Shown here: piece after piece, positions 29 through 55,712 of the stretch | How the letters are laid out: every line of letters starts with the position of its first letter | How positions within the stretch are numbered: the first letter of the stretch is position 1 | Source: an uncultured Acidobacteriota bacterium | Lineage (GTDB): Bacteria; Acidobacteriota; Vicinamibacteria; Marinacidobacterales; SMYC01 | Direction: 5' to 3' | DNA: 64,000 bases | Assembly (NCBI GenBank): GCA_947259165.1 | Contig: CAMYKY010000010.1 | Coordinates: forward strand, 34,433-98,432 | The notes under the pieces: model-generated | Database searches by the model: none | Told to the model about the DNA's origin: nothing | Seen by the model: the letters and a program-made list of their open reading frames with translations, nothing else | Translations under genes and position numbers: made by a program

Positions 29-700
29 CTACTCGACCGCGCCGACTTCCCGAGGGGGCCAGATTCGCACAAAGGCTTTGCCGTAGATGTAGCGCTCAGG
101 AACCAGCCCCCAGCTCCGAGAGTCGTTGCTCCCGCGGCGGTTGTCTCCGAGAACGAAATAGTGTCCGGGTCGTATCTCCTGAGCGGCGAAGCCACGGTGG
201 TCGGCATTCTCCGGGAAAACATACGTCTCGGCGATCAAGACTCCATCGACGTAAACGTCCCCGTTGCGAACCTCGACGGTTTCCCCAGGCAGTCCGATGA
301 CGCGCTTGATGAACGAAAGCTCCGGATCTTCCGGGTACCAAAACACGACGACGTCGCTGCGCTCAATATCGGCAAAACGATAGATGAACTTGTTTACCAG
401 AATCCGCTCACCGTCGTGTAGCTCGGGGGACATGCTCGTCCCTTGAACTTTGAATGCCTGGACAACATAGGTAATCAGAAGCACACAAACCACCACCGCG
501 ATCGCGAGATCGTGGAGTAGATCGATGAGTGATTGAAACGGTCGTCCTTTTTCCGGAACGCGCCCATCCGCCCGATCCGCCTCCAGACGCCTCTCCGACT
601 GGAGCGATGCGTCTGGAGAGCTCGTCGCACCCGAATCCGCCGGGGCTCGGTCGCACTCCGCATCCGGTGCAGCGGAATCGGCGGTCGTTGGCGAATCCAC
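29..700 (-). CDS. lepB: signal peptidase I (LepB)
   Basis: ORF 29..991 carries the SPase I boxes GTSMSPEL (Ser box), VVFWYPEDP, IKRVIGLPGE and GDNRRGSNDSRSWG, plus one N-terminal TM helix. The 5' 250 nt overlap the upstream FHA gene and contain no internal ATG, so the true start is probably the in-frame GTG near 700. Confidence 0.85.
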   Translation of the reverse strand: MDSPTTADSAAPDAECDRAPADSGATSSPDASLQSERRLEADRADGRVPEKGRPFQSLIDLLHDLAIAVVVCVLLITYVVQAFKVQGTSMSPELHDGERILVNKFIYRFADIERSDVVVFWYPEDPELSFIKRVIGLPGETVEVRNGDVYVDGVLIAETYVFPENADHRGFAAQEIRPGHYFVLGDNRRGSNDSRSWGLVPERYIYGKAFVRIWPPREVGAVE

Positions 701-741: not shown

Positions 742-1920
742 TCAAAGTTGCCTCATCACCCGCGTGCCCGCGACGCGGTCGTGGAGTCCACGCTTGTCGT
801 CGGTAAACGCAATCAGAATGAAACCCAATCCGAGTATCAAAGAGCTCGCAAAATACCCTAACACTCTGAGAAAGGCACGCTGAAACCCTATGGGAGAGTC
901 GCCGTCCTCCGTTTGCACCGAAAGCCCCAGAAGACTCTTTCCCGGCGTCGCACCCCGCGCAGCCCAAAAGAAGACGTAATACCCAAGACAAAGCAGAGGG
1001 AACACGATCGACACCGCTGCCAGGCTTCCTTCCGGAACGGGCCTGGGCCCGGTATCCCCGCCGTCAAGAGCGAACGTCCCCCACAAGAGTGTTGCCACGA
1101 GAAGCGGGATCCCGAGGATCATGCTGTCCACCAGGGCTGCAACGAGGCGAATGCCGAATCCGGCGGCCTCCTCCGCGCGTCGAGCGGCGGGGGTCGGTTT
1201 TCCCGGCCGGGGTCTGCCAGCCGCTATCGAAGCCGCGGGTTTGGCGCCACTTTCGGGTGCCTCGCCGAGAAGCTCGGAGCGATTGACTGCCTGAGTCACC
1301 AAACCGCGATCTTTTTTCGGCAGCTCATGGCCGCAATGGCCGCAAAACTCCGCGGGCAGCGGGACGGCTTTGCCGCACGCGGTACAGTTGACACTCGTCT
1401 TTTTATGGAGCTCGCCCCCGCACGCACGGCAGAAGCGGTCGGTGGCCAACGCCTGTTTTCCGCAGGAACGGCAGCTGAGAGTAGCTCCGGCACCGGGTCC
1501 CGCAGCCGGCGAGGAAGACGCGCCCGGCACGACGTCGCCTCCGCCGGGACCTTCCGGGTTGGCCGGATTGGCGCTATCCGCGGCACCAGCCCCCGCCACG
1601 GCGTCCGGTGCCGCTAGTGCGGTCGGTGCATCTTCGAGCTGGAACAGAAGACGCGAGGATCCGATTGCCACCAAATCCCCATCTCGCAGCGTTTTCTCCG
1701 CGTCAACTTTGTCCCCATTGACCAGGGTGCCGTTCGCGCTGTTGTTGTCCCGGAGCACATAGATATCCTCGCGCTGCTCCAAGATCGCGTGCCGGCGCGA
1801 CACCATCGAATCGGAGAGGACGATATCGTTCGAGGGGTCGCGACCGATCGAGATGACCCTCGAGGCAATCGGGATTTCCTTCTTGCTGGCCGAAGTCGGG
1901 TTGATGAAGAGCTTCGCCAC
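742..1920 (-). CDS. FHA domain protein with double zinc-ribbon and C-terminal RDD membrane domain
   Basis: The N-terminus is an FHA fold (ISIGRDPSNDIVLSDSMVSRRHAILE...NGTLVNG). After a Pro/Ala-rich linker come two zinc ribbons (CRSCG..CRACG and CTACG..CGHCGH). The C-terminus is an RDD-type polytopic membrane domain (LVDSMILGIPLL...KRGLHDRVAGTRV). It sits immediately downstream of the Ser/Thr kinase on the same strand. Confidence 0.8.
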   Translation of the reverse strand: MAKLFINPTSASKKEIPIASRVISIGRDPSNDIVLSDSMVSRRHAILEQREDIYVLRDNNSANGTLVNGDKVDAEKTLRDGDLVAIGSSRLLFQLEDAPTALAAPDAVAGAGAADSANPANPEGPGGGDVVPGASSSPAAGPGAGATLSCRSCGKQALATDRFCRACGGELHKKTSVNCTACGKAVPLPAEFCGHCGHELPKKDRGLVTQAVNRSELLGEAPESGAKPAASIAAGRPRPGKPTPAARRAEEAAGFGIRLVAALVDSMILGIPLLVATLLWGTFALDGGDTGPRPVPEGSLAAVSIVFPLLCLGYYVFFWAARGATPGKSLLGLSVQTEDGDSPIGFQRAFLRVLGYFASSLILGLGFILIAFTDDKRGLHDRVAGTRVMRQL

Positions 1921-1926
1921 AGAGCT

Positions 1927-4164
1927 TCACCTTCCCTGCCGGAAACGGAACCGCTGGACCCAGCGAATCTTGACAGGAACGTCGTACTTGGTTGCCGGGT
2001 CCCAACGCCACCGGCCTACCACATCGGTAACCGCCTCGTCGAAAATCTCGCCAGCCGACTCCTGAACTCGGATATCGGTCACGGCCCCGGTCTCGTCGAC
2101 GATGAAACTCAATTCAACGACACCCTCCAGCCCGTCACGCCGCGCACGCTCGGGATAACGCACGGCAGGACACTGGATGCATTCAGGGTCTACGACCCCC
2201 GCGGTGCCCCGCTCAACGAGCTCGCCCACCTCGACTCGCGGAGCCTGGGGTTCGGTGGGCGCCTCCGGAGTCGACGCGACCTCGCCAACCCGTTCGGTCA
2301 AAACCGCCTCCACCTCCACCGTACGTCCCGGGCGGGCGCGCACAGTGTCTTCCCAGGGAAGAAATCCGTCGCGGACGATGCGCAATTTGCGCTCGCCAGC
2401 CTGAACCTGCAGCCGATCCGTCGGTGTGACGCCGACCGCGCGGCCATCGATCTCCACCTGCGCACCGGCAGGGTTGCTGACGACGCGGACGCGCGCAGGC
2501 GGCGGCGGCTTGGGTGGCTCGGGCTGCAGCGTCACTTCGAGTGTGGCAACGGGAGCGTCAATGCTCAGCTCCGCCGTGAGCTCCTCGGACTGAAAGCCTT
2601 CGTGGCGCACCAGAAGATCGTAAGCCGCAAACGGCAGCTCGCCGAGCTCGAGCGGTGTCGTGCCGCGCTCCTCGCCGTCGACGACGACAGTGGCTCCTTC
2701 GGGCCCGCTGGTGATGAACAAGCTTCCGCTCTCGACGACGTCGACGGGCGCAGGCTCGGGGGGGATCACCGGATCCGATTGCTTCTCACCGCTGCCACCG
2801 GCGAGAAAGACAGCCAGGAGCACTACGAGAGCCACAAGCACGGCGCCACCCGCGAGTGCGAGTTTCTTTTGATCGAAGGGAGGCCGACGAGGACTCATTC
2901 CCCCGGAAATTTCCTTGTCGAGGGAGGCCGGCTCCGCTACGTCAACGGCGATGAGAGTCTCGTCAAGTTGGGCACCCGCGTAGAGCGTTTCCTCCGCCTC
3001 CTCGGCGACATAGACCGTTTCCTCTCCCGTGATCGCTGGGAGAGGGACGCTGGCGATAGTCTTCGTGCCATCAACTTCGGGCACGCTCGCTCCTGCGAAC
3101 GTCGCGGTCGCACCTTCGAGAGCCTCATCCCGGTTCGCTGCGGCCGACGGGAGATTGACCGTTTCGTCGCTGGCCGAGCTCTGGGCATCCGCAGCGGGGA
3201 CGAGCGTACCCGTCACCGGAGACGTAGGTTTTTTCGTGTCGGTCGCACTCGGCGCTTTTTCGAGAAAATTCGCCGGGTCTTTGACGATGATCGTCTCGCC
3301 TTCCAGGGCACCAAACCAAGACCCCAAACAGTGCTCGAGCTGCTCGACGAACATCGCCGCAGTCGGGAATCGCTCGAGGGGATCCTTGCTGAGCACCCTC
3401 GAGAAAACCTGATGCCATTTGTCCGGAAGAAGGCCCAAAATCTCGAGACCATCCGGGTGCACGGGATCTGAGTGCACGAGCTTGTACAGAATCGAGGTCA
3501 CGTTGTTGCCCGGAAACGGCTGCTGACCGCTGAGCATTTCGAAGGCCACGACTCCAAGCGAAAAGATATCGGTTCGCCCGTCCAGGTCTTCGCCCATCGC
3601 TTGTTCGGGAGACATATAGCTGGGCGTTCCCATCATCAGTCCGGAGTTCGTCATCTCCGCGTCCATGAGCTTCGCGATCCCGAAATCCGTGACTTTGACC
3701 TTCTCCCCCCCGAAGACGATCACGTTCGAGGGTTTGATGTCGCGATGGATCACGCCTTCGGTGTGCGCGTAGTCCACGGCGGCCGCAATCTGGGAAACGA
3801 GACCGACGACGACTTCTGGGCGGAGCCGCTCCCCCTCGAGTAGCTCGGCGACGGTCTGCCCCTCGACAAACTCCATCGCAAGCCAAGGAACCTGATCTTC
3901 CGTATGCCCGACATCGTACAAAGTGATGATGTTGGGATGGGACAACCGGCCCGCGGTACGCGCCTCCGTTGCGAAGCGCTCGAGAAACGCCTTGTAGTCA
4001 GGGCTCTGGGGAGGCACGTCGAGGCGTAGCGTTTTGACCGCGACGGGCCGTTTGATGAGCGGGTCGAACGCTTTGTAGACCGCGCCCATGGCACCGAAGC
4101 CAACGGCTTCGATGATCTCATAGCGATCGATCTTCTTGGGGATCTCGCCTCTCGATTCGCTCAA
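1927..4164 (-). CDS. transmembrane Ser/Thr protein kinase with two PEGA domains and a TonB C-terminal domain
   Basis: Hanks kinase motifs are present (GFGAMGAVYKA, VAVK, HRDIKPSNVIV, DFG, SPE). One TM helix follows (LALAGGAVLVALVVLLAVFLAGG). Two PEGA-like repeats (ITSGPEGATVVVDGEERGTTP and VVSNPAGAQVEIDGRAVGVTP) and a C-terminal TonB_C-like fold (GLEGVVELSFIVDETGAVTDIRV...KIRWVQRFRF) complete the protein. Confidence 0.85.
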   Translation of the reverse strand: MSESRGEIPKKIDRYEIIEAVGFGAMGAVYKAFDPLIKRPVAVKTLRLDVPPQSPDYKAFLERFATEARTAGRLSHPNIITLYDVGHTEDQVPWLAMEFVEGQTVAELLEGERLRPEVVVGLVSQIAAAVDYAHTEGVIHRDIKPSNVIVFGGEKVKVTDFGIAKLMDAEMTNSGLMMGTPSYMSPEQAMGEDLDGRTDIFSLGVVAFEMLSGQQPFPGNNVTSILYKLVHSDPVHPDGLEILGLLPDKWHQVFSRVLSKDPLERFPTAAMFVEQLEHCLGSWFGALEGETIIVKDPANFLEKAPSATDTKKPTSPVTGTLVPAADAQSSASDETVNLPSAAANRDEALEGATATFAGASVPEVDGTKTIASVPLPAITGEETVYVAEEAEETLYAGAQLDETLIAVDVAEPASLDKEISGGMSPRRPPFDQKKLALAGGAVLVALVVLLAVFLAGGSGEKQSDPVIPPEPAPVDVVESGSLFITSGPEGATVVVDGEERGTTPLELGELPFAAYDLLVRHEGFQSEELTAELSIDAPVATLEVTLQPEPPKPPPPARVRVVSNPAGAQVEIDGRAVGVTPTDRLQVQAGERKLRIVRDGFLPWEDTVRARPGRTVEVEAVLTERVGEVASTPEAPTEPQAPRVEVGELVERGTAGVVDPECIQCPAVRYPERARRDGLEGVVELSFIVDETGAVTDIRVQESAGEIFDEAVTDVVGRWRWDPATKYDVPVKIRWVQRFRFRQGR

Positions 4165-4385
4165 CGGGGTTCTCCGGCCATCCGGAATTGCAACCGGGGC
4201 CGACGGTCAAATTCGGTCAATGGTGCGAGGTAGCTGTCTCGCCACGAGTCAGGATCTATCTCTCCAAGATACAGTTAAGTCACTCTAACATAACCCTTTA
4301 AGGGGTGTCAACGCGACCCATGTAGCGAGCCGCACCGCGGGACGGTATGATAGCCAGGTCCGCGGACCCCCGGAGTTGCCGAGTT

Positions 4386-5987
4386 CCTATGTCACAAGCT
4401 CAATCGCTCGACTATCGCAGCCTTCCTTCCTACAAACCGTTGTTTCTAGACTATCTGCACCGATTCGACGCTTTGTCATCTTTCTTCGCGGGCGATCCGT
4501 TCGAGCCAGAGTCCTGGACGAAAGTGGCTTCCGAGCTCGACGTTGGCAACGCGCGCACCGGCACCGCCGCTCCACTCAAAGCGCTCAACCAGGCACTGGG
4601 TGCGGACGAGCACGCTTTGCGTTCAATCGACGGGCTTGGCGACGGCGCCCTCGCTGTTGTCAGTGGCCAACAGGTTGGGCTTTTCGGCGGCCCGCTCTAT
4701 ACGCTGTACAAAGCGATGAGCTCGGTGCGGTTAGCGCGCGCAGCGGAAGAGCGACTGCAAAAACGAGTCGTCCCAATATTTTGGATGGACGCCGACGACC
4801 ACGATTTCGCCGAGGTGCAAAGCGCCTGGGTGCTCGACCCGTCGTACGATCTCGTTAACCTGCGCTACGAAGGGGGCGACTCCACCGAGAGACTCGCCGT
4901 CGGCGGGCGCAAGCTGTCTCCCGCTATTGAGGCGGTCGTGGATCACGCGGCCCAATCGCTTCCGCAGACCGAGTTCAAGGAAGACGTGCTCTCAGCGCTC
5001 CGCCAAAGCTACTCACCGGGGAAGACGTTGGCAGAAGCGTTTGGCACGTGGCTTTTGCGCATGACGCGCGGTACTGGCCTCGTCGTCGTCGATCCTGCGC
5101 TTCCGGAGCTCAAAGCGATCGGAGCCAGCGTTTTCGAGCGAGAGCTAGCCGGCGGCTCCACGAGCACCCAGTTGGTGCAACAGACAACCGACGAGCTGCT
5201 CGCCCTGGGCTACCACGCGCAAGCGAACGCCTCGGAAACCAACCTGAACTTGTTCTACGCCGACCCGATGCGCAATCCGATCAGCGCCTCAGCGAACGCA
5301 ACGGAAAAAAGTGACCTGGTGCGCCAGCTCCGAGATGAGCCGACCCGGTTCAGCCCGAACGTGTTGCTCCGCCCCGTCTATCAAGACACGCTATTCCCGA
5401 CTCTCGCTTACGTCGCCGGCCCCAACGAGCTCGCCTACTTTGCGCAGCTGAAACGGGTTTACGAGCATTTCGACGTGACCATGCCCCTCATCGCGTCCCG
5501 CACGAGCCTCACGGTCATTGAGCGGCCGCAGGCACGTTTCCTCGATCGCTACGGCGTGGACCTCGTCAAACTCGACTCGGATGACGAGTCCGTGCTCAAC
5601 GACATCGTCCGTGCACAAACTCCACCTCAGCTCGACGAAGATTTGTCCCGCGCCCGGAACTGCATCCAGGACATCACCACCGCTCTCGAGCGAGACCTCA
5701 AGGGTGTCGACGAGTCGCTCGTTCCCGCTGTCAAGTCGACACGGGGAAAGCTATTTCATCATTTGCAAGAACTCGAGACGAAAGCACTTCGTGCGGTCAA
5801 GCGGAAAAACGACACCGTTCGCCAGCAGTTTCTTGCCACGCGCACGGCGCTGTTCCCCGGCTTCGAGATGCAGGAACGGAAATTGTCGCCACTCGGCTAT
5901 TTCAACAAGTATGGCTGGCACTTCGCGTCGATGGTCGAGGACAAGGCGGACCCCGCGCTCAAAGCGCACGCGCTGCTCTATCCTTAA
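4386..5987 (+). CDS. bshC: bacillithiol biosynthesis cysteine-adding enzyme BshC-like (YllA family)
   Basis: About 535 aa, matching BshC in length. It has the conserved N-terminal stretch VVSGQQVGLFGGPLYTLYKA and VAGPNELAYFAQLK, and a C-terminal coiled-coil. The start is taken as ATG 4386 (MSQAQS), which follows a GGAG; the ORF extends upstream to 4347. Confidence 0.55.
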   Translation, partial: PMSQAQSLDYRSLPSYKPLFLDYLHRFDALSSFFAGDPFEPESWTKVASELDVGNARTGTAAPLKALNQALGADEHALRSIDGLGDGALAVVSGQQVGLFGGPLYTLYKAMSSVRLARAAEERLQKRVVPIFWMDADDHDFAEVQSAWVLDPSYDLVNLRYEGGDSTERLAVGGRKLSPAIEAVVDHAAQSLPQTEFKEDVLSALRQSYSPGKTLAEAFGTWLLRMTRGTGLVVVDPALPELKAIGASVFERELAGGSTSTQLVQQTTDELLALGYHAQANASETNLNLFYADPMRNPISASANATEKSDLVRQLRDEPTRFSPNVLLRPVYQDTLFPTLAYVAGPNELAYFAQLKRVYEHFDVTMPLIASRTSLTVIERPQARFLDRYGVDLVKLDSDDESVLNDIVRAQTPPQLDEDLSRARNCIQDITTALERDLKGVDESLVPAVKSTRGKLFHHLQELETKALRAVKRKNDTVRQQFLATRTALFPGFEMQERKLSPLGYFNKYGWHFASMVEDKADPALKAHALLYP

Positions 5988-6057: not shown

Positions 6058-6258
6058 ATGAGACGAACCCCATCGACAAGAGCCCATGGAGCCACGCCCA
6101 GGGCCTCGCTGGAGCGTGAGCTTCGTTTGACCCGTTTGCGAGACAGCGTGCGGGCGGGTCGCTACCATGTCCCCGCAGATTCTGTCGCCAAGAGTATTCT
6201 CCGGCACCTCGGCACTACGGAACGTGAGGACGAGTCGCTGGCCGCTCAGCAGCGATAG
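6058..6258 (+). CDS. possible FlgM-like anti-sigma-28 factor (short)
   Basis: A 66-aa ORF inside the larger track ORF 5518..6258. Its C-terminus (RLTRLRDSVRAGRYHVPADSVAKSILRHLG) resembles the FlgM consensus (R.A.LK.AI..G.Y.VD..KIA..ML). A FliA-type sigma gene lies 350 nt away. Confidence 0.3.
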   Translation: MRRTPSTRAHGATPRASLERELRLTRLRDSVRAGRYHVPADSVAKSILRHLGTTEREDESLAAQQR

Positions 6259-6542
6259 TCGTAAACCAGTTTGTCGTCTTGAATCGGCCCGAGGATCTCG
6301 TGAACGAACCGCTGGTGCTCGGAGTGGACCTGGTACGCCTCGAGTGCCGCGTCGTCGTCAAACTCCATGACGAGCGCAAGTGGGTGCGATCGCTCGGCTT
6401 TGACCCCGAGCCCCTCACCGACACGCAGATCCCGCACCCCTGGAATAGGGCCGAGAGTTTCTTTGGCCTGCGCGATGAACGCACCGGTATCGGCAGACGA
6501 GATTTCCGGCTTGAGTCGAATAAGAACTACATGGCAAATCAT
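6246..6542 (-). CDS. Dabb-family stress-responsive alpha/beta-barrel protein
   Basis: About 98 aa from MICHVVLIRLKPE. The ferredoxin-like Dabb pattern is visible (HVVLIRLK...LGPIPGVRDLRVGE...ALVMEFDD..ALEAYQVHSEHQRF). Confidence 0.6.
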   Translation of the reverse strand: MICHVVLIRLKPEISSADTGAFIAQAKETLGPIPGVRDLRVGEGLGVKAERSHPLALVMEFDDDAALEAYQVHSEHQRFVHEILGPIQDDKLVYDYRC

Positions 6543-6608
6543 GCGCGCACCTCGGAAGAAAGAATACCCCATTGGAGGCAGAGGGTCCGATGAGCGCGAC
6601 TCCCGCGG

Positions 6609-7334
6609 CTACGCCGTGCGAGCGAGTACGGCGATGGGTCTCGGGTGCAGGTGCGCCGTGAGTCGCGAACGGAGTGTCCGAACTGCCTTGGTGTGGATCT
6701 GAGAAACGCGCGACTCGTTGACACCGAGAACGTCTCCGATTTCCTTCATCGTCAGCTCTTCGTGATAGTACAGAGTCATTACCAGCCGCTCCCGCTCGCC
6801 CAGCCTCTCGACGGCGCTCGCGAGCAGGGCAATGAGCTCCCGCCGCTCGAGCAAATCATGAGGGTCGCTACCCTTGGGATCGCGCACGAAGACGTCGATG
6901 TCATCGACCCCTTCGACACGTTCGGCCCTCACCTCCGCACGGCGGACTTCCTCGACGATTTTGCGAAGCCGGGTCGTGGACAGCTCGAGCTCGGTGGCAA
7001 GCTCCTCGTCGCTCGGTGCTCGTCCCAGGAGACACTCGAGTCTCGCCGACGCTGCGTCGAGCTCACGACGTCGACGACGCACCGAGCGCGGTAACCAGTC
7101 GAGAGCACGGAGACTATCGAGAATCGAGCCACGGATCCGAAGCTCGGCGTACGTCCAAAAACGCACGCCTTTGCTGACATCGTACTTGGCGGCAGCGTCG
7201 AGCAGGCCGAGAAAACCGGCCTGGGTCAAGTCGCAAAGCTCCACCTGCGACGGCAGCCGGCTCGCGACATGAAGTGCCACCCGCCGAACCAGCGGCAAGT
7301 ACTCCTGAACCATGGCCTGTTTGCTTGCGTTCAT
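6609..7334 (-). CDS. fliA: RNA polymerase sigma factor, FliA/WhiG (sigma-28) family
   Basis: Region 2 (LPLVRRVALHVASRL...DLTQAGFLGLLDAAAKYD...FWTYAELRIRGSILDSLRALDWLPRSVRRR), region 3 and region 4 HTH (LTMKEIGDVLGVNESRVSQIHTKAVRTLR) are all recognisable. The start is taken at MNASKQ, inside the longer track ORF. Confidence 0.8.
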   Translation of the reverse strand: MNASKQAMVQEYLPLVRRVALHVASRLPSQVELCDLTQAGFLGLLDAAAKYDVSKGVRFWTYAELRIRGSILDSLRALDWLPRSVRRRRRELDAASARLECLLGRAPSDEELATELELSTTRLRKIVEEVRRAEVRAERVEGVDDIDVFVRDPKGSDPHDLLERRELIALLASAVERLGERERLVMTLYYHEELTMKEIGDVLGVNESRVSQIHTKAVRTLRSRLTAHLHPRPIAVLARTA

Positions 7335-7522
7335 CGTGACGTATTTTCCGGGGTGTTTGCGGCGCGCAGTGGTGTGTTGCAAGAAAACTGCCAGCAACCA
7401 AAGCTCATGAAATGAGCTACTTGGACCTGGGGATGGGGGCAAGTTCCCCTAGGGGCGTGTTAAAACTTTAAACCCGCTGAGAATCCAGCACACCGATCCC
7501 CACTGCTGAAACGGTGACCTTT

Positions 7523-26416: not shown

Positions 26417-26441
26417 TTCATTCATGCTATAGATCTCAGCC

Positions 26442-27215
26442 ATGCCAGAGTACAACTACAAAACCTTCCCCCTCGACGCCGATATGCACGACTTCGTGCA
26501 ATTTCCCAATATCGCGCGGGTTGGGACCAAGGCACCGGACGGAGTGCTTATCGATGCCAAGGACGGCAGCGAAGTGCGGCTCGGGGCGCTCTACCGTAAT
26601 GGAGTGAGCGTCATCGAGTTCGGCTCGTTCACGTGACCCTACTGCGCGCAGGCGGGACCCGCGCTCGAGTCCATGGCCACCGAGTTTCGAGAATACGACT
26701 GCCAGTTCGTTTTCGTGTATACCCGCGAGGCGCACCCCAGCGATCGTTATCCGGGCCATGACAACATCGAGCGCAAGCTCGCGCACGCGCGGGCGATGGT
26801 GGAGCAGCTGGGCTTCGCGCGTCCGATGCTCGTCGACGATCTCGACGGGACCGTCCATCATGAGTTCGGACGGCTCCCCAACATGACCTATATCGTCAAC
26901 GCGGGCGGAACGATCGTCTATCGGGCTGCCTGGACCGACCCGCGTACGATTCGTGGCGCCTTCGAGCAAATTCTGTTCGAGCGAGGCGAGAGACGCGAAA
27001 AGAGACGGATCACCCCCTACTATATGGAGTGGCTCCCCCAACGCACCAACGACGACGTCCGGTTCGTCCAGGAGCTGTTCGAGCTCGGGGGCGGCCGGCC
27101 GGTCGACGAGTTCATCACGGCGATGGACAACGTGGAAGGGAATACGGCGACGAAGCAAATCAAACAGTGGTGGGAGAGGCGACAATCGCAACCCGAGACA
27201 ACCACCGAAAGTTGA
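26442..27215 (+). CDS. candidate selenoprotein: thioredoxin-fold, iodothyronine-deiodinase-like protein with in-frame UGA (Sec) at 26634-26636
   Basis: Track ORFs 26442..26636 and 26673..27215 are in the same frame and are split only by that TGA. The read-through peptide is ...VIEFGSFT-U-PYCAQAGPALESMATEFREYD..., close to the deiodinase/Dio-like motif FGSxT-U-PxF and in a redoxin-like context. A GC hairpin (GCGCG-caggcgggacc-CGCGC) begins 8 nt after the UGA, as expected for a bacterial SECIS. Confidence 0.55.
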
Positions 27216-27281
27216 ATTGCCTCGCCGGCCTAGCGGCGCGGTCTCGTTCTTATCCCTAGACCGAACTGCCGAGACGGCGCG

Positions 27282-29684
27282 CTAGACGTCGAGCGGTCGC
27301 CACGCGAGCGCGAACCGACCGACCGTCGTATCCGACTTGCGGAAACGCAACGGCACCTCGTCGACGTCGAGAAGAGAGTTGTCGACCGCGCTTCGAAGCT
27401 CGCTGGTCTTCGCCGCCAGCTCGCTCTCGAGCTCGCGGAGTTTTCGCTTCTCCACTTTGAACGCCTTTTCTGCACGCGCGACGTCTTCGCGCTCCCGCGA
27501 CGCTCTCGTCGCCGAGCGGGCCGTTCGTGAGGCGCGGCCGACGTTCGTAAGACTGCCGAGTTTACGGCCGAAAAGAGCACCCACCAGTGTCTCCCCAATA
27601 GAGATCGCGGTGTGGGTCTTTTGTGCACTGTATTGGTCCGACTCACGCGCGACCCGCAGGCCGGCTTTTTCGACGCGCTCCTCGAGCTTTTGCAGCCTGG
27701 CGCCGTAGCGATTTCGGAGCTTCGACAGCTCTTCGTCTCGTTTCTGATGAAGTGCATGGGTCAACCTGACGCGAAACTCCCCTTCGCTCTCGCCGGCCCG
27801 CGAGCTCATCTTGAGCTTCTTGCAACGAAAGAGGGTCAGCGCATGCTCACGGTAAAGACGCGCGAGACACGACTTTTGCCAACGAACGTAATTCTTCTCG
27901 AGACCCGCCGTTTTCGGCAGCACGGCGAACGATGCGCCGGGGCTCGGCTCCTCCCCCACCACGACCGTGGGCAATTCCTCGCCGCTGGGCCAGTCGGGAC
28001 CTCCGCTAGCGAGCGGCGTCAGCCAATTCAACTTCGTCCAGTGATCCACCTCCAAGGAGGAACGAACGTAGTGCACTTCAACGGACGCCAGCAGATGAGG
28101 TGAATAGGTCACGTCCCCCCCACGACTCACCGGCAGGAAACACTCTTCGATGCCTTCAGGAGCTCGCGGACGCTGCGATACGACGTCCGTAGCCGTGAGA
28201 GTGACTCGACGCGGCTTGGGTACCGCCGGCAGATCGCGCGTTCCGGTCAAGTCCTTGATTTGCAGCAGCGTGAGCGGTCCTCGCAGATAAGAAAGAGCCC
28301 ATCGCGTCCGGAACAGAACCGGCGAGTCTTCATGAACGTTTTGCACGAGAAACATGCGTTTTTCCAGCGACGCCAGGAGCTGTTCGGTGCGCTTGCGATC
28401 GAACGCCTCGCCGTTCGAAGACGTTGCGAGTCCGTCCATCAACCGGTCGCGATCCCGCGTCGTTTGTAATCTTCCCAGAAACCAAGTGCCCATGTTCGCG
28501 AGGCCCTTGTAATCCAAATCGACTGGGTTTTGGGTCGCAAGCAATACACCCACGCCATAGGCACGTGCCTGTTTCAACAACGTCAGCATCGGAGCCTTGG
28601 AAGGCGGGGTCTTCACGGGCGGAAAGTAGCCAAAAATCTCGTCCATGTAGACAATCGCCCGGAGGCTTCCGGTACCCTCGAGGCTTCGCATCCAGGAGAT
28701 CACCTCGTTCAGGAACAACGTTACGAAGAACATGCGCTCTTCGTCCGACAAATGAGCGATCGACAAAATCGCGAGGCGGGGCTTACCGGCATCGGTGTAG
28801 AGAAGCTTGGGAATGTCGAGCGGCTCCCCCTCACGCCACGCGGCAAACGCGGGCGATGCGAGCAGGTTGTTGAGCCGCGCCGTCAGCACAAAGCGCTCCT
28901 TCGCGGGGAAGAAAGATTCCAAATCCAAAACGCCCAGCTTCTCGAAAGGCGGTTCCTGGATTTCGCGCAGGAGGGTTTCCAAGTCACGATCTTCGCCATC
29001 GCGCCAGGCGCGATGGAGGATGGTCGACAGGAGAATGTGCTCACGACTCGTCACCGGGTCCGCTTCGACGCCGACGAGGCCTAGCAGACCGGACACAGCA
29101 TTGAGCACGCGCTCTCGCAGCGCGTCCTCGTCCTCCCGCACTGCCTCGGAGGGAGCGTCGAACGCTCGCAGTAGCGCGATAGGCCGGCCGGCCGAGCTTC
29201 CTGGCGTGTAGATGCGGACCTCGGCCGACTTCCTGGAGGCCGCGATGCGAGACTTCGACTGCCCCCATTCACTAATCCCGCGATCCCATGTCGTGGCGAT
29301 CTCAGCCGCATGCTCGTCGAGCGTCTGTCCGTGGCGGGTAGCCTCGGCGGTGTCGACCCAGGGCCGGAAGTCATCGGGCTCGAGCTTGGGGAACTGGAGC
29401 ATTAGGTTCCCCATATCGCCTTTGGGGTCGATGATGAGGGCCGGGATACCGTCGAGCGCCGCCTCTTCGAGCACAACCACCGAGAGCCCCGTCTTACCGC
29501 TGCCGGTCATACCGACAACGAGACCGTGGGTCGTGAGATCCTTTGAGTCGTAGAGAAAGGGAGTCCTCGCGTCACCGCCCAAACCACCGAGATAGAACGC
29601 GCCGAGTTTCTCGAAGTTCTTCATGCGGACACGCGTCGAGGTCGGAGTTCGTTTTTCAATAGCATCGCCGACAGAATTTATCAC
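27282..29684 (-). CDS. HerA/FtsK-superfamily P-loop ATPase, YjgR (DUF853)-like, with ~300-aa C-terminal coiled-coil extension
   Basis: Walker A (LVVGMTGSGKTGL) in a YjgR-like N-terminal context (LGAFYLGG..DLTTHGLVVGMTGSGKTG..ALIIDPKGDM). Walker B/sensor region (AIVYMDEIFGYFPP...LLATQNPVDLDYKGL). The C-terminal third is Arg/Glu-rich predicted coiled-coil. GTG start; an ATG is 60 nt downstream. Confidence 0.6.
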   Translation of the reverse strand: MINSVGDAIEKRTPTSTRVRMKNFEKLGAFYLGGLGGDARTPFLYDSKDLTTHGLVVGMTGSGKTGLSVVVLEEAALDGIPALIIDPKGDMGNLMLQFPKLEPDDFRPWVDTAEATRHGQTLDEHAAEIATTWDRGISEWGQSKSRIAASRKSAEVRIYTPGSSAGRPIALLRAFDAPSEAVREDEDALRERVLNAVSGLLGLVGVEADPVTSREHILLSTILHRAWRDGEDRDLETLLREIQEPPFEKLGVLDLESFFPAKERFVLTARLNNLLASPAFAAWREGEPLDIPKLLYTDAGKPRLAILSIAHLSDEERMFFVTLFLNEVISWMRSLEGTGSLRAIVYMDEIFGYFPPVKTPPSKAPMLTLLKQARAYGVGVLLATQNPVDLDYKGLANMGTWFLGRLQTTRDRDRLMDGLATSSNGEAFDRKRTEQLLASLEKRMFLVQNVHEDSPVLFRTRWALSYLRGPLTLLQIKDLTGTRDLPAVPKPRRVTLTATDVVSQRPRAPEGIEECFLPVSRGGDVTYSPHLLASVEVHYVRSSLEVDHWTKLNWLTPLASGGPDWPSGEELPTVVVGEEPSPGASFAVLPKTAGLEKNYVRWQKSCLARLYREHALTLFRCKKLKMSSRAGESEGEFRVRLTHALHQKRDEELSKLRNRYGARLQKLEERVEKAGLRVARESDQYSAQKTHTAISIGETLVGALFGRKLGSLTNVGRASRTARSATRASREREDVARAEKAFKVEKRKLRELESELAAKTSELRSAVDNSLLDVDEVPLRFRKSDTTVGRFALAWRPLDV

Positions 29685-29706
29685 ACAGGTCCGTGGCCCA
29701 TGGTGG

Positions 29707-29873
29707 TGTATACGGCATTCGGGCGAAAGCTCGTTTGAAGAGCGCTTGCCCGCACACCGGAGCCTCGATAAACGATCGTAGAAGGTGTGCGCGCAGCATC
29801 GAGACGCAGTCGTGTTGACTCGATGAGGAATCCGAAACCAGACTCGAACCGTATGCCGTATGCCGTTTTTACC
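29707..29873. mobile_element. MITE-like element, family 2 copy 2, between the vWA gene stop and the ATPase start
   Basis: Right end cgaaccgtatgccgtatgccg (heptamer CCGTATG x2) abuts the vWA stop. Left end tatacggcattcggg is a partial inverse. The core ctcgataaacgatc...gcgcgcagcatcgagacgcagtcg is homologous to 12826..13016. Confidence 0.7.
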
Positions 29874-31389
29874 GCACGACGCGTTCGTGGCTGCGGCGCA
29901 TGCGCAGCGCCCGTTGGATCTTTCCCGGGATGAAGCGTTTGAGGAACAAGCGGGAGGGGACGTTTTCGTAGGCGAGGCCGAGCTTCACATCCTTGCGGCC
30001 GCCCATCCCGAGCTCGTCGACCCGAAACTCATAGCGTCCGAGTCGAACCTTACTGCCGTAACGCAGCTCGAACTCCTGGGATTTCACTCCGTAGGTCTTG
30101 CAATCAATCGTGGGACCGGTGAGTTTCTTATTGAGCTTGTCATTGTGCAGCAGATGGACTTTCGCCCGCAGAAAATCGAGTGGACCAAACTTGGCCCGCT
30201 CGGCGGGTGCACTGGTGACGAGTCTTTCGACGAGCGCCTCTTCCATGTCGCCTGCGACATACTCTAGATTGAGCGCGTAGATCTGCTCGTCTTTCGTCCC
30301 CTCCTTGGAGAGGAGCTCGACACGTTCGCGCAGTTGTTCGAGCGGTAGCTCGATGAGCCCTCGAGCGATCTCGTCGATGCCATCGATGTGAAAGCCCGTC
30401 GGTGGAAGCTCTGTGGAGCGCTCCTTGGCGGTCAACATCGCCACAGCATGCTTCGACGATTCGACCAGCGAGAGTCCTTTCCAACTCCAACGAGGGCCAT
30501 CGGGTGAAACCCGGCGCAGCCGGTCAACTGCCATTTGCAGTGGACTGCCGGTCTTCAATTCGACGATCTCGCGATCTCCGGAGCCCGGAAAAGATCGGAC
30601 GCCAATACCTATGAAGATCGCGAGCATGGCCGTCAGAACGCCTGCAATCCCGAACTCGACTCTTGACGCCGGAGGCGTGGCGATCCGAGTGACGATAGGC
30701 TCGATCTCTTCGAGTCCCTCATCCTTCTCGATGCGGAAAATGAAGCGGCGCAGCAGCATGCCGTCATCGTCGAAAAACTCGGCAATTCCCTGAGCGTAGT
30801 CGCTCGAGGCGATCGACCCGTTGGCCGCGACGACCATTCGCTGAATCAATTCGTAGTCGACTTCTTCGCCGATGAGGATTGCGTAGAGAGGCAGTCCGAG
30901 ACTCTCGAGCAAGCGAACCGTTCGGGAGCCGGCTTCCTGTCTCAAGTCCGCGCCTTTCGCGACCGATTGGTCCTGCCAGTCACGCGGCGACGGGTCGATC
31001 ATCCCGTCGGTGATCAGCACGATTTTGAATTCGGTGCCCTCGGGATACTCCGCAGCCACGTCGCGCGCGGCTTCGAACGCAAAATAGAAGTCAGTCCACT
31101 TCCCCGCATTGCGGTAGTGCTGGGGAGCGTCGACGTAAACCTCGTTACGGCCGCCGAAGAGGATGAGTCGGTAGGGCTGGCCTTTCAGGAAGGAATAGAT
31201 CTTCTCGATGGCTTCACGTCGCTGGGTGTCTGGATCGAGCGGAGGAAGGCTCGCCGAGTTGTCCAACAGGAACAGGATGACCGATTCGCCGGCCTGCGGC
31301 TGGAGGAGCGGAGTTTTCGTTTCCTCCGCGCTCGAGAGCACCGAGGACAAAACGGCCGCGCCCACAAAGAGCGTTCTGACGGTCTTCAT
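29869..31389 (-). CDS. membrane-anchored von Willebrand factor A (vWA) domain protein
   Basis: Sec signal peptide (MKTVRTLFVGAAVLSSVLSSA). vWA with MIDAS (LLDNSASL ... LITDG). One TM helix (FGIAGVLTAMLAIFIGIGV). About 250-aa cytoplasmic C-terminal domain of unknown function. Start taken at ATG 31389; the track ORF extends to 31467. Confidence 0.75.
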   Translation of the reverse strand: MKTVRTLFVGAAVLSSVLSSAEETKTPLLQPQAGESVILFLLDNSASLPPLDPDTQRREAIEKIYSFLKGQPYRLILFGGRNEVYVDAPQHYRNAGKWTDFYFAFEAARDVAAEYPEGTEFKIVLITDGMIDPSPRDWQDQSVAKGADLRQEAGSRTVRLLESLGLPLYAILIGEEVDYELIQRMVVAANGSIASSDYAQGIAEFFDDDGMLLRRFIFRIEKDEGLEEIEPIVTRIATPPASRVEFGIAGVLTAMLAIFIGIGVRSFPGSGDREIVELKTGSPLQMAVDRLRRVSPDGPRWSWKGLSLVESSKHAVAMLTAKERSTELPPTGFHIDGIDEIARGLIELPLEQLRERVELLSKEGTKDEQIYALNLEYVAGDMEEALVERLVTSAPAERAKFGPLDFLRAKVHLLHNDKLNKKLTGPTIDCKTYGVKSQEFELRYGSKVRLGRYEFRVDELGMGGRKDVKLGLAYENVPSRLFLKRFIPGKIQRALRMRRSHERVVR

Positions 31390-31514
31390 ATTGGGGTTCG
31401 GTGGACTACTTTGATTATAGAGGGTGAAACGCTTTCTAGCCACGCCTATCGGAAGCTCCGAACCCAACGAGTCCTACGATCGACGAGCCCCAACTCCACC
31501 GAACGCGTTAGTGG

Positions 31515-49524: not shown

Positions 49525-49635
49525 AAGTGCGCCAAAAAACCCAATATTTGGGTTCCTAGGCGCTTGCGACTGCCGACCCTCGACCGGAACTCCGTCAAAG
49601 ACTGAAGTGCAGGGACTTTGCCCCGTCCCCAAGAG

Positions 49636-49651
49636 TGGAACACCGCTTGCA
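49636..49651 (+). promoter_or_regulatory. candidate sigma-54 (-24/-12) promoter for the nos operon
   Basis: TGGAAC-accgc-TTGCA matches TGGCAC-N5-TTGCW with correct spacing, ~105 nt upstream of the cytochrome c start. It overlaps a palindrome CTTGCacGCAAG. Confidence 0.4.
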
Positions 49652-49756
49652 CGCAAGCAGCTGTGGCTCAGCTCAGAACCCAACGGTGATACTGTAGCCA
49701 GGGTTCAGAGCTTTGTATTTTTCAAAACTCTTCAAGAGAAAGGCAGGGTCGGACGG

Positions 49757-50533: not shown

Positions 50534-50571
50534 AGGCTAGAGGAATGCGAATGTCAAACAGGAGGGATTTA

Positions 50572-52383: not shown

Positions 52384-52396
52384 GCAGACTGCGCTC

Positions 52397-55708: not shown

Positions 55709-55712
55709 CTCG

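What the first reader, a model, noticed from the sequence alone, without database searches (positions are those of the whole stretch)
742..4164. Ser/Thr kinase with extracytoplasmic PEGA x2 + TonB-C domain, paired with an FHA - double zinc-ribbon - RDD membrane protein
FHA/STPK pairs are common, but both partners here have unusual architectures. The kinase carries a TonB C-terminal-like fold at its periplasmic tip after two PEGA domains. This suggests interaction with TonB-box-bearing outer-membrane receptors or a mimic of TonB. Its neighbour combines an FHA phospho-Thr reader with two zinc ribbons and an RDD polytopic membrane domain. Together they look like a membrane-spanning phospho-signalling pair, possibly linked to envelope or uptake sensing. 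lepB lies immediately downstream.
Basis: partly seen in the sequence, partly recalled or inferred. Interest (0 to 1): 0.55.

Follow-up and report, generated by a model that had tools for sequence, protein, structure and literature searches.

The report
TonB-tipped Ser/Thr kinase with FHA-RDD partner
A marine acidobacterium encodes a membrane-spanning protein kinase whose outer tip is a genuine TonB-type docking domain. It is locked in an operon with a phospho-threonine-reading membrane protein. The pair is real and conserved across the whole bacterial class, auto-annotated but never studied, so it is a modestly interesting uncharacterised signalling module rather than a one-off oddity.

Summary
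The kinase (1927..4164, minus strand) has an active Hanks kinase domain, a disordered linker, one TM helix, two PEGA domains and a TonB_C domain. An AlphaFold model (pLDDT 94.6) of the TonB_C tip superposes on receptor-bound P. aeruginosa TonB (TM 0.90, 1.4 Å).

The partner (742..1920) has an FHA domain, two zinc ribbons and an RDD domain. Its phospho-Thr pocket, eight Zn cysteines and R/D/D signature are invariant or nearly invariant.

The architecture is not unique. More than 100 database clusters (42-76% identity; class Vicinamibacteria, Acidobacteriota) share it, named "TonB family protein" or "RDD family protein". All 11 distinct loci inspected keep the order bshC (divergent), then kinase, partner, lepB.

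New evidence for pairing:
- The two genes are 3-6 nt apart.
- The kinase linker carries (D/E)ETΦ threonine motifs enriched 8-fold over shuffles.

The kinase is not a TonB: it lacks the His-bearing TM motif, has a 430-aa cytoplasmic part, and no exbBD lies nearby. No paper describing a kinase-TonB_C fusion was found.

Verdict: a real, conserved, uncharacterised variant of STPK/FHA signalling. The ligand and the output are unknown.

The parts
4282..4311 (-). σ70-like promoter candidate upstream of the kinase (TTGACA, 18-nt spacer, TG-TAGAGT)
   Evidence: It matches 10 of 12 consensus positions and has an extended-10 TG. It is one of only 2 sites found in 4.7 kb. This is a consensus match only.
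1927..4164 (-). Gene for the 745-aa transmembrane Hanks-type Ser/Thr kinase (Pkinase, linker, TM, PEGA x2, TonB_C)
   Evidence: ORF. Pfam and NCBIfam domain calls. A 100%-identical database entry exists (P0001), and orthologues share 42-74% identity over the full length.
3367..4122 (-). Cytoplasmic protein kinase domain (residues 15-266)
   Evidence: Pkinase E=1e-46. HRDIKPSN, DFG and GTPSYMSPE are about 100% conserved. Activation-loop T172 is conserved in 95% and T180 in 100% of sequences.
2863..3312 (-). Disordered juxtamembrane linker (residues 285-434) with five (D/E)ETΦ motifs at T291, T335, T383, T393 and T403; candidate pThr docking sites for the FHA domain
   Evidence: The linker is unconserved except at these islands: T291 96%, T335 73%, T383 87%, T393 88%. 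The motif [DE]T[VILM] occurs 3.5 times per linker against 0.44 expected from shuffles, across 75 orthologues.
2794..2862 (-). Single transmembrane helix (residues ~435-457)
   Evidence: There is exactly one hydrophobic peak in 75 of 75 orthologues. A His is present in only 3-6 of 75.
2527..2724 (-). PEGA domain 1 (residues 481-546), periplasmic β-sandwich
   Evidence: Pfam PEGA matches in 2 stretches. The AF2 model has pLDDT ~98 here. It resembles carboxypeptidase-regulatory and CnaB-type sandwiches.
2293..2496 (-). PEGA domain 2 (residues 557-624); it follows a PPKPPPP spacer
   Evidence: This is the best Pfam PEGA stretch, residues 559-624.
1930..2187 (-). CxxC hairpin (C662, C665) plus TonB C-terminal domain (residues 660-745)
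   Evidence: TonB_C scores 68.8 bits. PDB sequence hits are TonB only. Foldseek gives 6i97_D with TM 0.90 and rmsd 1.4 Å. Y670 is conserved in 88%, P671 in 100%, G693 in 100% and W719 in 97%. The CxxC pair is present in all 50 homologues at ≥48% identity and in none of 24 below that.
742..1920 (-). Gene for the 392-aa FHA, double zinc-ribbon and RDD membrane protein; it starts 6 nt after the kinase stop, behind a GGAAGG Shine-Dalgarno-like motif
   Evidence: ORF, junction sequence, Pfam. The family has 982 hits, and nearly all of the top 120 share the architecture.
1636..1920 (-). FHA domain (residues 1-95), cytoplasmic pThr reader
   Evidence: FHA E=5.6e-20. G26, R27, S41, R42, H44, N63, G64 and T65 are invariant in 53 sequences.
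1321..1482 (-). Two zinc ribbons (residues 147-200)
   Evidence: DZR and Zn_Ribbon_1 (two stretches) match. C150, C153, C164 and C167 are invariant; C179, C182, C193 and C196 are conserved in ≥90%.
766..1164 (-). RDD polytopic membrane domain (residues 253-385)
   Evidence: RDD E=5e-24, 85.5 bits against 24.1. R258 is conserved in ≥90%; D265 and D381 are invariant.
29..700 (-). lepB (signal peptidase I), third gene of the conserved cluster; the start is provisional (in-frame GTG at 700)
   Evidence: Peptidase_S26 E=2.6e-48 and TIGR02227 162.5 bits. Start reasoning is. lepB lies directly after the partner gene in all 11 distinct loci.
4347..5987 (+). bshC (bacillithiol synthesis), the conserved divergent neighbour. 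It is listed as context; a functional link is not shown.
   Evidence: TIGR03998 scores 440 bits against 265.8. It is divergent from the kinase in all 11 distinct loci.

Best explanation
This is a three-gene operon (kinase, FHA-ZnR-RDD protein, lepB). It encodes a conserved trans-envelope Ser/Thr phospho-signalling module of Vicinamibacteria.

Shown:
- The kinase is a single-pass inner-membrane protein with a catalytically competent cytoplasmic Hanks domain.
- It has a periplasmic arm made of Pro-rich spacers, two PEGA β-sandwiches and a terminal TonB_C domain.

Inferred:
- The TonB_C tip acts as a passive docking or sensing head, not an energised transducer.
- It binds a β-strand ('TonB-box-like') of an outer-membrane or periplasmic partner by strand addition, as TonB does.
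- Engagement or clustering promotes autophosphorylation of the activation loop and of the repeated (D/E)ETΦ threonines in the juxtamembrane linker.
- These pThr sites recruit the invariant FHA pocket of the neighbouring protein. That places its zinc ribbons and RDD membrane domain under phospho-control.

Unknown: the output. It is probably an inner-membrane or envelope process, given the RDD domain and the co-transcribed signal peptidase I.
For: - Domain identities and fold.
- Active-site and activation-loop conservation.
- One TM helix in 75 of 75 orthologues, with Pro-rich spacers between the periplasmic domains.
- Operon structure: a 6-nt gap with an SD-like motif, a 41-nt gap to lepB, a promoter-like site upstream, and no intergenic terminator.
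- Strict co-occurrence and order in 11 of 11 distinct loci, reached independently from kinase homologues and from partner homologues, down to 38-42% identity.
- About 70 kinases from other phyla lack the partner.
- The FHA pThr-binding residues are invariant.
- ETΦ motifs are conserved inside an otherwise unconserved linker and are 8-fold enriched.
- TonB_C is also attached to other signal transducers, namely BlaR1/M56 proteins. It also sits in the FHA- and ZnR-bearing trans-envelope proteins GltG and GltJ (PMC11761067). So a non-transport docking role has precedent.
Against: - No binding partner for the TonB_C tip was identified.
- No TonB-dependent receptor, exbBD or PP2C phosphatase gene lies in the 64-kb window.
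- Phosphorylation of the ETΦ threonines and FHA docking are inferred from sequence only. The enrichment test uses related sequences, so it overstates independence.
- Conserved gene order with housekeeping genes (bshC, lepB, argS nearby) could partly reflect a frozen ancestral order within one class, rather than functional coupling of lepB and bshC.
- RDD function is unknown (PMC12419801), so the output step has no support.
Confidence: 0.55

Rival explanations
1. PknB-like growth and envelope regulator. The periplasmic PEGA-TonB_C arm binds peptidoglycan or simply localises the kinase in the envelope, as PASTA domains do in Gram-positives. The kinase/FHA pair then controls cell-wall synthesis, division or membrane biogenesis as a housekeeping circuit, not ligand sensing at the outer membrane.
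For: - The best NCBIfam match of the kinase domain is the PknB/Stk1 family (285.6 bits). The best match of the FHA domain is FhaB/FipA of the mycobacterial division cluster (58.4 bits).
- The module appeared as a fixed cluster in every related locus examined, among housekeeping genes.
- A TonB-like protein with a peptidoglycan/septum role exists (SjdR, PMC8262864).
Against: - Both NCBIfam matches are far below their cut-offs (450 and 125) and cover only the generic domains.
- There is no PASTA or other known PG-binding domain.
- The tip best matches TonB in its receptor-bound form.
- No division or cell-wall genes are adjacent.
Confidence: 0.25
2. A true TonB paralogue with an added kinase. 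The protein couples to ExbB/ExbD and energises TonB-dependent transporters. The cytoplasmic kinase reports or regulates that activity.
For: - It has a genuine TonB_C fold, with the YP motif and the aromatic core conserved.
- It has a membrane anchor N-terminal to the periplasmic arm, plus Pro-rich spacers.
- Databases name it 'TonB family protein'.
Against: - The TM helix has no conserved His or SHLS-type motif; a His is present in 3-6 of 75.
- It has a 430-residue cytoplasmic part, whereas TonB proteins generally lack a cytoplasmic domain (PMC8262864).
- Folded PEGA domains replace the long Pro-rich rod.
- No exbBD lies nearby, either in the window or in the related loci.
Confidence: 0.08
3. 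An anti-phage or conflict kinase (PD-T4-6 / MADS-type), with the FHA protein as its effector.
For: PADLOC PD-T4-6 and mad6 models hit the kinase strongly (up to 305 bits). The NCBIfam MAD6 model scores 146 bits.
Against: - The hits cover only the generic kinase domain (residues ~13-324) and are below the NCBIfam cut-off (146 against 460).
- The partner and lepB have no PADLOC hits.
- The locus is a vertically conserved core cluster with constant housekeeping neighbours, not a variable island.
Confidence: 0.02

Closest known systems
Mycobacterial/actinobacterial transmembrane STPKs with FHA partners (PknB/PknA with FhaA and FhaB/FipA; PknB/PknG with GarA/OdhI)
   Same: - A single-pass Hanks kinase with an extracytoplasmic sensor and a disordered juxtamembrane segment carrying threonines.
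- An adjacent FHA-domain protein with a canonical pThr pocket.
- FipA is also membrane-anchored.
- The best NCBIfam matches of both domains point to this group.
   Different: - The sensor is PEGA x2 plus TonB_C instead of PASTA.
- The host is a diderm acidobacterium.
- The FHA partner carries two zinc ribbons and an RDD polytopic domain.
- No PP2C phosphatase or division genes lie in the cluster.
- Scores are well below the family cut-offs (285.6 against 450; 58.4 against 125).
TonB (ExbB-ExbD-TonB energy transducer)
   Same: - A C-terminal domain of the same fold and sequence family (Foldseek TM 0.90 to 6i97_D; phmmer E=3.7e-7 to 6fip).
- A membrane anchor preceding a periplasmic arm with Pro-rich spacers.
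   Different: - A 430-aa cytoplasmic kinase and linker.
- No His/SHLS motif in the TM helix.
- Two folded PEGA domains in the periplasmic arm.
- A CxxC hairpin in front of the domain.
- No exbBD neighbours.
Myxococcus Agl-Glt gliding machinery proteins GltG (FHA, TM, TonB-CTD-like) and GltJ (ZnR, GYF, TM, TonB-CTD-like) (PMC11761067)
   Same: It uses the same set of modules (FHA, zinc ribbon, single TM, periplasmic TonB_C) in inner-membrane proteins that bridge cytoplasm and envelope. There, TonB_C serves as a docking domain rather than for transport.
   Different: - Here TonB_C is on a kinase, while FHA and ZnR are on a separate RDD protein.
- There are no Agl/Glt motor or outer-membrane genes.
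- NCBIfam GltG scores 44.5 bits against a cut-off of 650, and the AgmX/PglI tail model 20.9 against 40. So there is no membership, only a shared set of domain types.
BlaR1/M56-type membrane signal transducers fused to tandem TonB_C domains
   Same: An inner-membrane signal-transducing protein uses TonB_C as its periplasmic module. These were 7 of 10 long TonB_C proteins sampled among the best matches to this TonB_C.
   Different: - The output is a protease/anti-repressor, not a kinase.
- There are 3-7 TonB_C repeats instead of one.
- There are no PEGA domains and no FHA partner.
- These proteins are uncharacterised too, as far as I know.

Membership tests
Hanks-type (eukaryotic-like) Ser/Thr protein kinase | A Pkinase fold with the catalytic Lys, the HRD catalytic loop, the DFG motif and the activation loop/P+1 motif | tested here: met
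   PF00069 scores 159.8 bits against 31.7. VAVK, HRDIKPSN, DFG and GTPSYMSPE are ~90-100% conserved in 75 orthologues.
TonB_C domain family (PF03544 / TIGR01352) | A sequence profile match above the curated cut-off, and the TonB CTD fold | tested here: met
   Scores are 68.8 bits against 24.6 and 54.9 bits against 27.1. PDB sequence hits are TonB only. Foldseek gives 6i97_D with TM 0.90 and rmsd 1.4 Å on a pLDDT-94.6 model.
TonB energy-transducer protein (functional TonB) | An N-terminal TM anchor carrying the conserved Ser/His (SHLS) motif that couples to ExbB/ExbD (the motif is from established knowledge of E. coli TonB) | tested here: not met
   A His occurs in the TM segment of only 3-6 of 75 orthologues, and none in the window's protein.
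TonB energy-transducer protein (functional TonB) | [quoted passage not shown] | tested here: not met
   About 430 cytoplasmic residues, comprising a kinase domain and a linker.
TonB energy-transducer protein (functional TonB) | Dependence on, or genomic association with, ExbB/ExbD, and binding to TonB boxes of TonB-dependent transporters | not testable with these tools
   No exbBD or TBDT genes lie in the window or in the flanks of the related loci. Functional dependence and binding need experiments or a complex prediction.
PEGA domain (PF08308) | A profile match above the cut-off; a β-sandwich with the PEGA-like motif | tested here: met
   92.7 bits against 20.8, in two stretches. The motifs GPEGA and NPAGA are visible in the sequence. 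The model shows two β-sandwiches at pLDDT ~98.
FHA phospho-threonine-binding domain | The FHA fold with the conserved Gly-Arg, Ser-Arg-x-His and Asn-Gly pocket residues | tested here: met
   PF00498 scores 72 bits against 20.7. G26, R27, S41, R42, H44, N63, G64 and T65 are invariant in 53 sequences. Actual pThr binding was not tested.
RDD family (PF06271) | A profile match above the cut-off and the conserved Arg/Asp/Asp signature in a polytopic membrane domain | tested here: met
   85.5 bits against 24.1. R258 is conserved in ≥90%; D265 and D381 are invariant.
PknB/Stk1 PASTA kinase (NF033483) | Extracellular PASTA repeats, and a full-length match above 450 bits | tested here: not met
   285.6 bits, and only model positions 7-303 (the kinase domain) match. 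There is no PASTA hit in Pfam.
Agl-Glt gliding proteins GltG / AgmX-type tail | Full-length equivalog match (cut-off 650) or myxo_SS_tail domain match (cut-off 40) | tested here: not met
   GltG scores 44.5 bits (FHA region only). myxo_SS_tail scores 20.9 bits.
PD-T4-6 / MADS defence kinases | A match beyond the generic kinase domain, and location in a defence context | tested here: not met
   PADLOC hits cover residues ~13-324 only, and the partner genes have no hits. NCBIfam MAD6 scores 146 bits against 460. The housekeeping synteny is conserved.
Signal peptidase I (LepB) | The TIGR02227 equivalog above its cut-off | tested here: met
   162.5 bits against 47; Peptidase_S26 E=2.6e-48.

The most novel reading that the evidence does not exclude
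The kinase is a new kind of 'cell-surface signalling' receptor. Its un-energised TonB_C tip reads exposure of the TonB box on ligand-loaded TonB-dependent transporters (or a similar strand on another outer-membrane protein). It converts outer-membrane receptor occupancy directly into cytoplasmic Ser/Thr phosphorylation. The FHA-ZnR-RDD protein is the first phospho-regulated RDD effector. That would give both orphan TonB_C domains and the enigmatic RDD domain a testable function.
Probability: 0.15. Interest if true: 0.75.

Novelty: new variant of a known kind. Interest (0 to 1): 0.4.

Why it matters
- STPK/FHA pairs are well known, but their sensor domains in diderm bacteria are mostly unexplored. 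A bona fide TonB C-terminal domain used as the sensing tip of a kinase would link outer-membrane events to Ser/Thr phosphorylation. That route differs from FecA-FecR-type signalling.
- The partner offers a handle on the RDD domain, whose role is stated to be unknown (PMC12419801).
- The module appeared as a fixed cluster in every related locus examined across Vicinamibacteria, an abundant soil and marine acidobacterial class. It therefore probably serves a basic envelope function there.
- The practical significance is limited. The hosts are largely uncultured, and neither the ligand nor the output is known.

Tried and rejected
- **Single-sequence AlphaFold of the periplasmic region:** pLDDT 45, unusable. 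It was replaced by an alignment-based model.
- **Exact look-up of the window's own kinase in the contig index:** not on record.
- **Genome scan with the single protein:** it found only 5 orthologous genomes. The other ~74 loci were unrelated kinases matched through the kinase domain. They served as negative controls.
- **Literature searches** for kinase+TonB+PEGA+FHA, TonB C-terminal+Hanks+Acidobacteria, kinome+PEGA+TonB and TonB_C+Pkinase: none describes this fusion. The PEGA-defining paper is held only as an abstract.
- **Defence-system reading:** rejected. PADLOC hits are to the generic kinase domain only.
- **'True TonB' reading:** rejected on the TM motif, the cytoplasmic domain and the genomic context.
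- **GltG/GltJ membership:** rejected on scores.
- **Naturally split kinase / PEGA-TonB_C genes:** these database entries look like frameshift artefacts of long-read assemblies. In L085 the reading frame changes between the two halves, with a G7 run near the junction.
- **Profile search with the periplasmic module alone:** it returned mainly fragments and split calls, plus generic PEGA proteins. It returned no second full-length kinase architecture, except one 390-aa Pkinase+TonB_C entry on a 1.8-kb contig.

Full report
**1. Observation**

The finding's limits coincide exactly with two adjacent minus-strand ORFs. One encodes a 745-aa protein (1927..4164) and the other a 392-aa protein (742..1920).

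Pfam on the 745-aa protein:
- Pkinase, residues 15-266, E=1e-46.
- PEGA, two stretches, E=1.3e-26.
- TonB_C, residues 667-742, 68.8 bits against a gathering score of 24.6.

Pfam on the 392-aa protein:
- FHA, residues 23-87.
- Double zinc ribbon, residues 150-197, and Zn_Ribbon_1 (two stretches).
- RDD, residues 253-385, 85.5 bits against 24.1.

NCBIfam agrees: tonB_Cterm scores 54.9 bits against 27.1. The next gene is signal peptidase I and the divergent upstream gene is bshC.

**2. Is the C-terminal domain really a TonB domain?**

- A sequence search of the last 107 residues against all PDB chains returns only genuine TonB C-terminal domains. These include P. aeruginosa 6fip (E=3.7e-7) and E. 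coli 1u07, 2gsk and 2grx.
- A single-sequence AlphaFold run failed, with pLDDT 45.
- A 75-sequence alignment (A1) gave a model of residues 481-745 with mean pLDDT 94.6.
- The model shows two β-sandwiches, a low-confidence Pro-rich linker, and an α/β domain.
- Foldseek's top hit for that α/β domain is TonB bound to the transporter FoxA (6i97_D, TM 0.90, rmsd 1.4 Å). Other TonB structures follow, including the BtuB and FhuA complexes.
- The PEGA units resemble carboxypeptidase-regulatory and CnaB-type sandwiches.
- The TonB 'YP' motif (Y670 88%, P671 100%), G693 (100%) and W719 (97%) are conserved in the family.

The refutation 'a profile search assigns a different fold' therefore does not apply.

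**3. How common is it?**

- The kinase has a 100%-identical database entry.
- More than 100 further clusters at 90% identity have the same Pkinase+PEGA+TonB_C composition, at 42-74% full-length identity. They are named 'TonB family protein' or 'serine/threonine-protein kinase', and where an organism is given it is Vicinamibacteria.
- The partner family gave 982 hits. Nearly all of the top 120 are FHA+DZR+RDD, named 'RDD family protein' or 'FHA domain-containing protein'.
- The closest genomes are 'Candidatus Marinacidobacterales' MAGs (best 71% identity, OZ250169.1). That order belongs to class Vicinamibacteria, phylum Acidobacteriota.
- So the architecture is widespread within one class and is auto-annotated.
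- Four targeted full-text searches found no paper describing a kinase-TonB_C fusion. It is catalogued but uncharacterised.

A phmmer scan of 1.84 billion representatives with the TonB_C domain alone gave 25,182 hits:
- About 13 representatives (54-65% identity, single stretch) are the kinase orthologues.
- The remaining top hits have 3-7 tandem TonB_C repeats.
- Of ten long examples sampled, seven are BlaR1/M56 signal transducers and none is a kinase.

A profile of the periplasmic module alone found fragments and split calls of the same family, plus generic PEGA proteins. It also found a single short Pkinase+TonB_C entry without PEGA.

**4. Are the two genes a functional pair?**

*Gene organisation*
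- The kinase stop and the partner's GTG start are 6 nt apart. A GGAAGG Shine-Dalgarno-like motif sits inside the kinase's 3' end.
- The probable lepB start (GTG at 700) lies 41 nt after the partner's stop.
- A σ70-like promoter (10 of 12 matches, extended-10 TG) lies upstream of the kinase. No intergenic terminator was found.

*Synteny*
- Loci reached from kinase homologues at 50%, 42% and ~47% identity all show bshC (divergent), then kinase, FHA-DZR-RDD and lepB.
- The five orthologous genome loci show the same order. One exception is L009: its FHA and zinc-ribbon part gave no match and its kinase gene changes frame, probably through assembly errors.
- Loci reached independently from the most distant partner homologues (38-53% identity) show the same order again, with a 3-nt gap between the two genes.
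- In total the order holds in 11 of 11 distinct loci.
- About 70 unrelated kinases from other phyla, fetched in the same scan, have no such neighbours.

*FHA partner residues*
- The FHA pocket residues (G26, R27, S41, R42, H44, N63, G64, T65) are invariant in 53 sequences.
- The eight zinc-ribbon cysteines and the RDD signature (R258, D265, D381) are invariant or nearly invariant.

*Kinase residues*
- The catalytic motifs are essentially invariant. The activation-loop threonines T172 and T180 are conserved in 95% and 100% of sequences.
- The ~150-residue juxtamembrane linker is unconserved except for islands of (D/E)ETΦ: T291 96%, T335 73%, T383 87%, T393 88%, plus T403.
- The motif [DE]T[VILM] occurs 3.5 times per linker against 0.44 expected from shuffles.
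- Threonines followed by hydrophobic residues in kinase juxtamembrane segments are the classic FHA docking sites in the mycobacterial systems. That comparison rests on established knowledge and was not tested here.

**5. Is it a TonB?**

No.
- All 75 orthologues have exactly one TM helix, but it lacks a conserved His. A His occurs in only 3-6 of 75, and not in the window's protein. In TonB the Ser/His TM motif couples to ExbBD (established knowledge).
- TonB proteins generally lack a cytoplasmic domain (PMC8262864). This protein has about 430 cytoplasmic residues.
- No exbBD or TonB-dependent receptor genes occur in the 64-kb window or in the flanks of the related loci.

What it shares with TonB is the overall geometry: a membrane anchor, Pro-rich spacers (50% proline between the PEGA domains) and a terminal TonB_C head.

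**6. Most likely mechanism**

*Shown*
- It is a single-pass, catalytically competent Hanks kinase with a periplasmic PEGA-PEGA-TonB_C arm.
- It is co-inherited and almost certainly co-transcribed with an FHA-ZnR-RDD membrane protein and with lepB.

*Inferred*
- The TonB_C head docks passively onto a β-strand of an envelope partner, as TonB does with TonB boxes.
- That engagement controls autophosphorylation of the activation loop and of the linker ETΦ threonines.
- The partner's FHA domain binds those pThr sites, bringing the zinc ribbons and RDD domain under phospho-control.

*Unknown*
- The output. The RDD domain's role is explicitly unknown. One group reports a conserved intramembrane binding site facing the cytoplasm (PMC12419801).

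I put 0.55 on this overall picture. I put only about 0.15-0.3 on the specific idea that the ligand is the TonB box of a TonB-dependent transporter.

**7. Rivals**

- **PknB-like housekeeping regulator (0.25).** The ectodomain would bind peptidoglycan or merely localise the kinase. Support comes from the best, sub-threshold, family matches (PknB/Stk1, FhaB/FipA), the core-genome context, and the precedent of SjdR. The absence of PG-binding domains and of division genes argues against it.
- **A true TonB paralogue with a kinase (0.08).** See section 5.
- **A defence kinase (0.02).** PADLOC PD-T4-6 and mad6 hits are confined to the generic kinase domain, and the locus is conserved core genome.

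**8. Comparison with known systems**

- Functionally it is closest to actinobacterial transmembrane STPK/FHA pairs, with a different sensor and a different FHA partner.
- Structurally its tip is TonB.
- Combinatorially it recalls Myxococcus GltG (FHA, TM, TonB-CTD-like) and GltJ (ZnR, GYF, TM, TonB-CTD-like). There, TonB_C domains dock within a trans-envelope machine (PMC11761067). Membership is excluded by scores.
- It also parallels the uncharacterised BlaR1/M56-TonB_C transducers.

**9. Novelty and score**

- The instance in this window is one ordinary member of a large orthologous family.
- The family itself is an undescribed variant of STPK/FHA signalling: a TonB_C sensor plus an RDD partner.
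- It would mildly surprise a specialist. It does offer handles on two orphan domains (non-TonB TonB_C, and RDD). It does not open a long-standing question by itself, and no ligand or output is known.
- Interest 0.40; novelty: new variant of a known kind.

**10. Additional details**

- A CxxC pair (C662, C665) directly precedes the TonB_C core. It is present in all 50 homologues at ≥48% identity and absent in all 24 more distant ones. It therefore marks a subclade. Whether this periplasmic cysteine pair is redox-active, and whether that relates to the ever-present divergent bacillithiol gene bshC, was not tested.
- Several database entries show the kinase split into a ~480-aa kinase and a ~300-aa PEGA-TonB_C protein. 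In L085 the two halves lie in different frames, with a G7 run near the junction. In L009 the frame also changes. These are most likely long-read indel artefacts.

Noticed in passing
window 2170..2181 (kinase residues C662-C665): A periplasmic CxxC pair sits immediately before the TonB_C 'YP' motif. It is present in 50 of 50 homologues at ≥48% identity and replaced by K/R..G in 24 of 24 more distant ones. Genuine TonB domains matched in the PDB show no such pair in the printed alignments. It may be a disulfide or redox switch.
   Followed up: partly
window 4347..5987 (+) and loci L001-L009, L084-L086: The bacillithiol gene bshC is divergently adjacent to the kinase in all 11 distinct loci; in L002 the GT4 and PIG-L genes next to it look like bshA and bshB. 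Most relatives also carry a small ArsR/HTH_5 regulator between bshC and the kinase. That regulator is missing in this window, where the gap 4165..4346 is only 182 bp.
   Followed up: partly
L085 3668..5997; L009 6001..8500: The kinase gene is called as two ORFs (473 aa with Pkinase, 302 aa with PEGA-TonB_C) in L085, with a frame change and a G7 homopolymer near the junction. In L009 the frame also changes and the FHA/Zn part is not detected. These are probably long-read assembly indels. They explain the 'Pkinase only' and 'PEGA+TonB_C only' database entries.
   Followed up: partly
P0440: A 390-aa protein on a 1.8-kb metagenome contig carries Pkinase plus TonB_C without PEGA. It may be a second, independent kinase-TonB_C architecture, or a fragment.
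   Followed up: no
proteins P0247-P0393, e.g. P0278, P0385: Many proteins carry 3-7 tandem TonB_C domains. Seven of ten long ones sampled are BlaR1/M56 peptidase signal transducers; others carry LRR or FG-GAP repeats. This looks like a large class of non-TonB uses of the domain.
   Followed up: partly
window 49607..56603 (+): A nitrous-oxide reductase cluster: a dihaem cytochrome c (49607..50533), a NosZ-like propeller/cupredoxin protein (50470..52383), and a 1103-aa ORF (52397..55708). That ORF combines NosR-like FMN_bind and Fer4_5 domains with NosD/β-helix, an apparent NosR-NosD fusion.
   Followed up: no
window 26436..31467 (-): An 800-aa HerA/DUF87-like ATPase (27282..29684) is flanked by ORFs of 251 and 532 aa with no Pfam match. 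It could be a mobile-element or defence-type module.
   Followed up: no
window 6246..7442 (-): A σ70-family sigma factor (regions 2, 3 and 4; 6609..7442) is followed by a small Dabb stress-responsive α/β-barrel protein (6246..6572), just beyond bshC. A Dabb gene also lies near bshC in L086.
   Followed up: no
window 742..1920: The kinase has a 100%-identical database entry (P0001). The best match for the partner encoded right beside it is only 76% identical, so the partner's exact sequence was not among the listed hits, perhaps because a different start was called.
   Followed up: no
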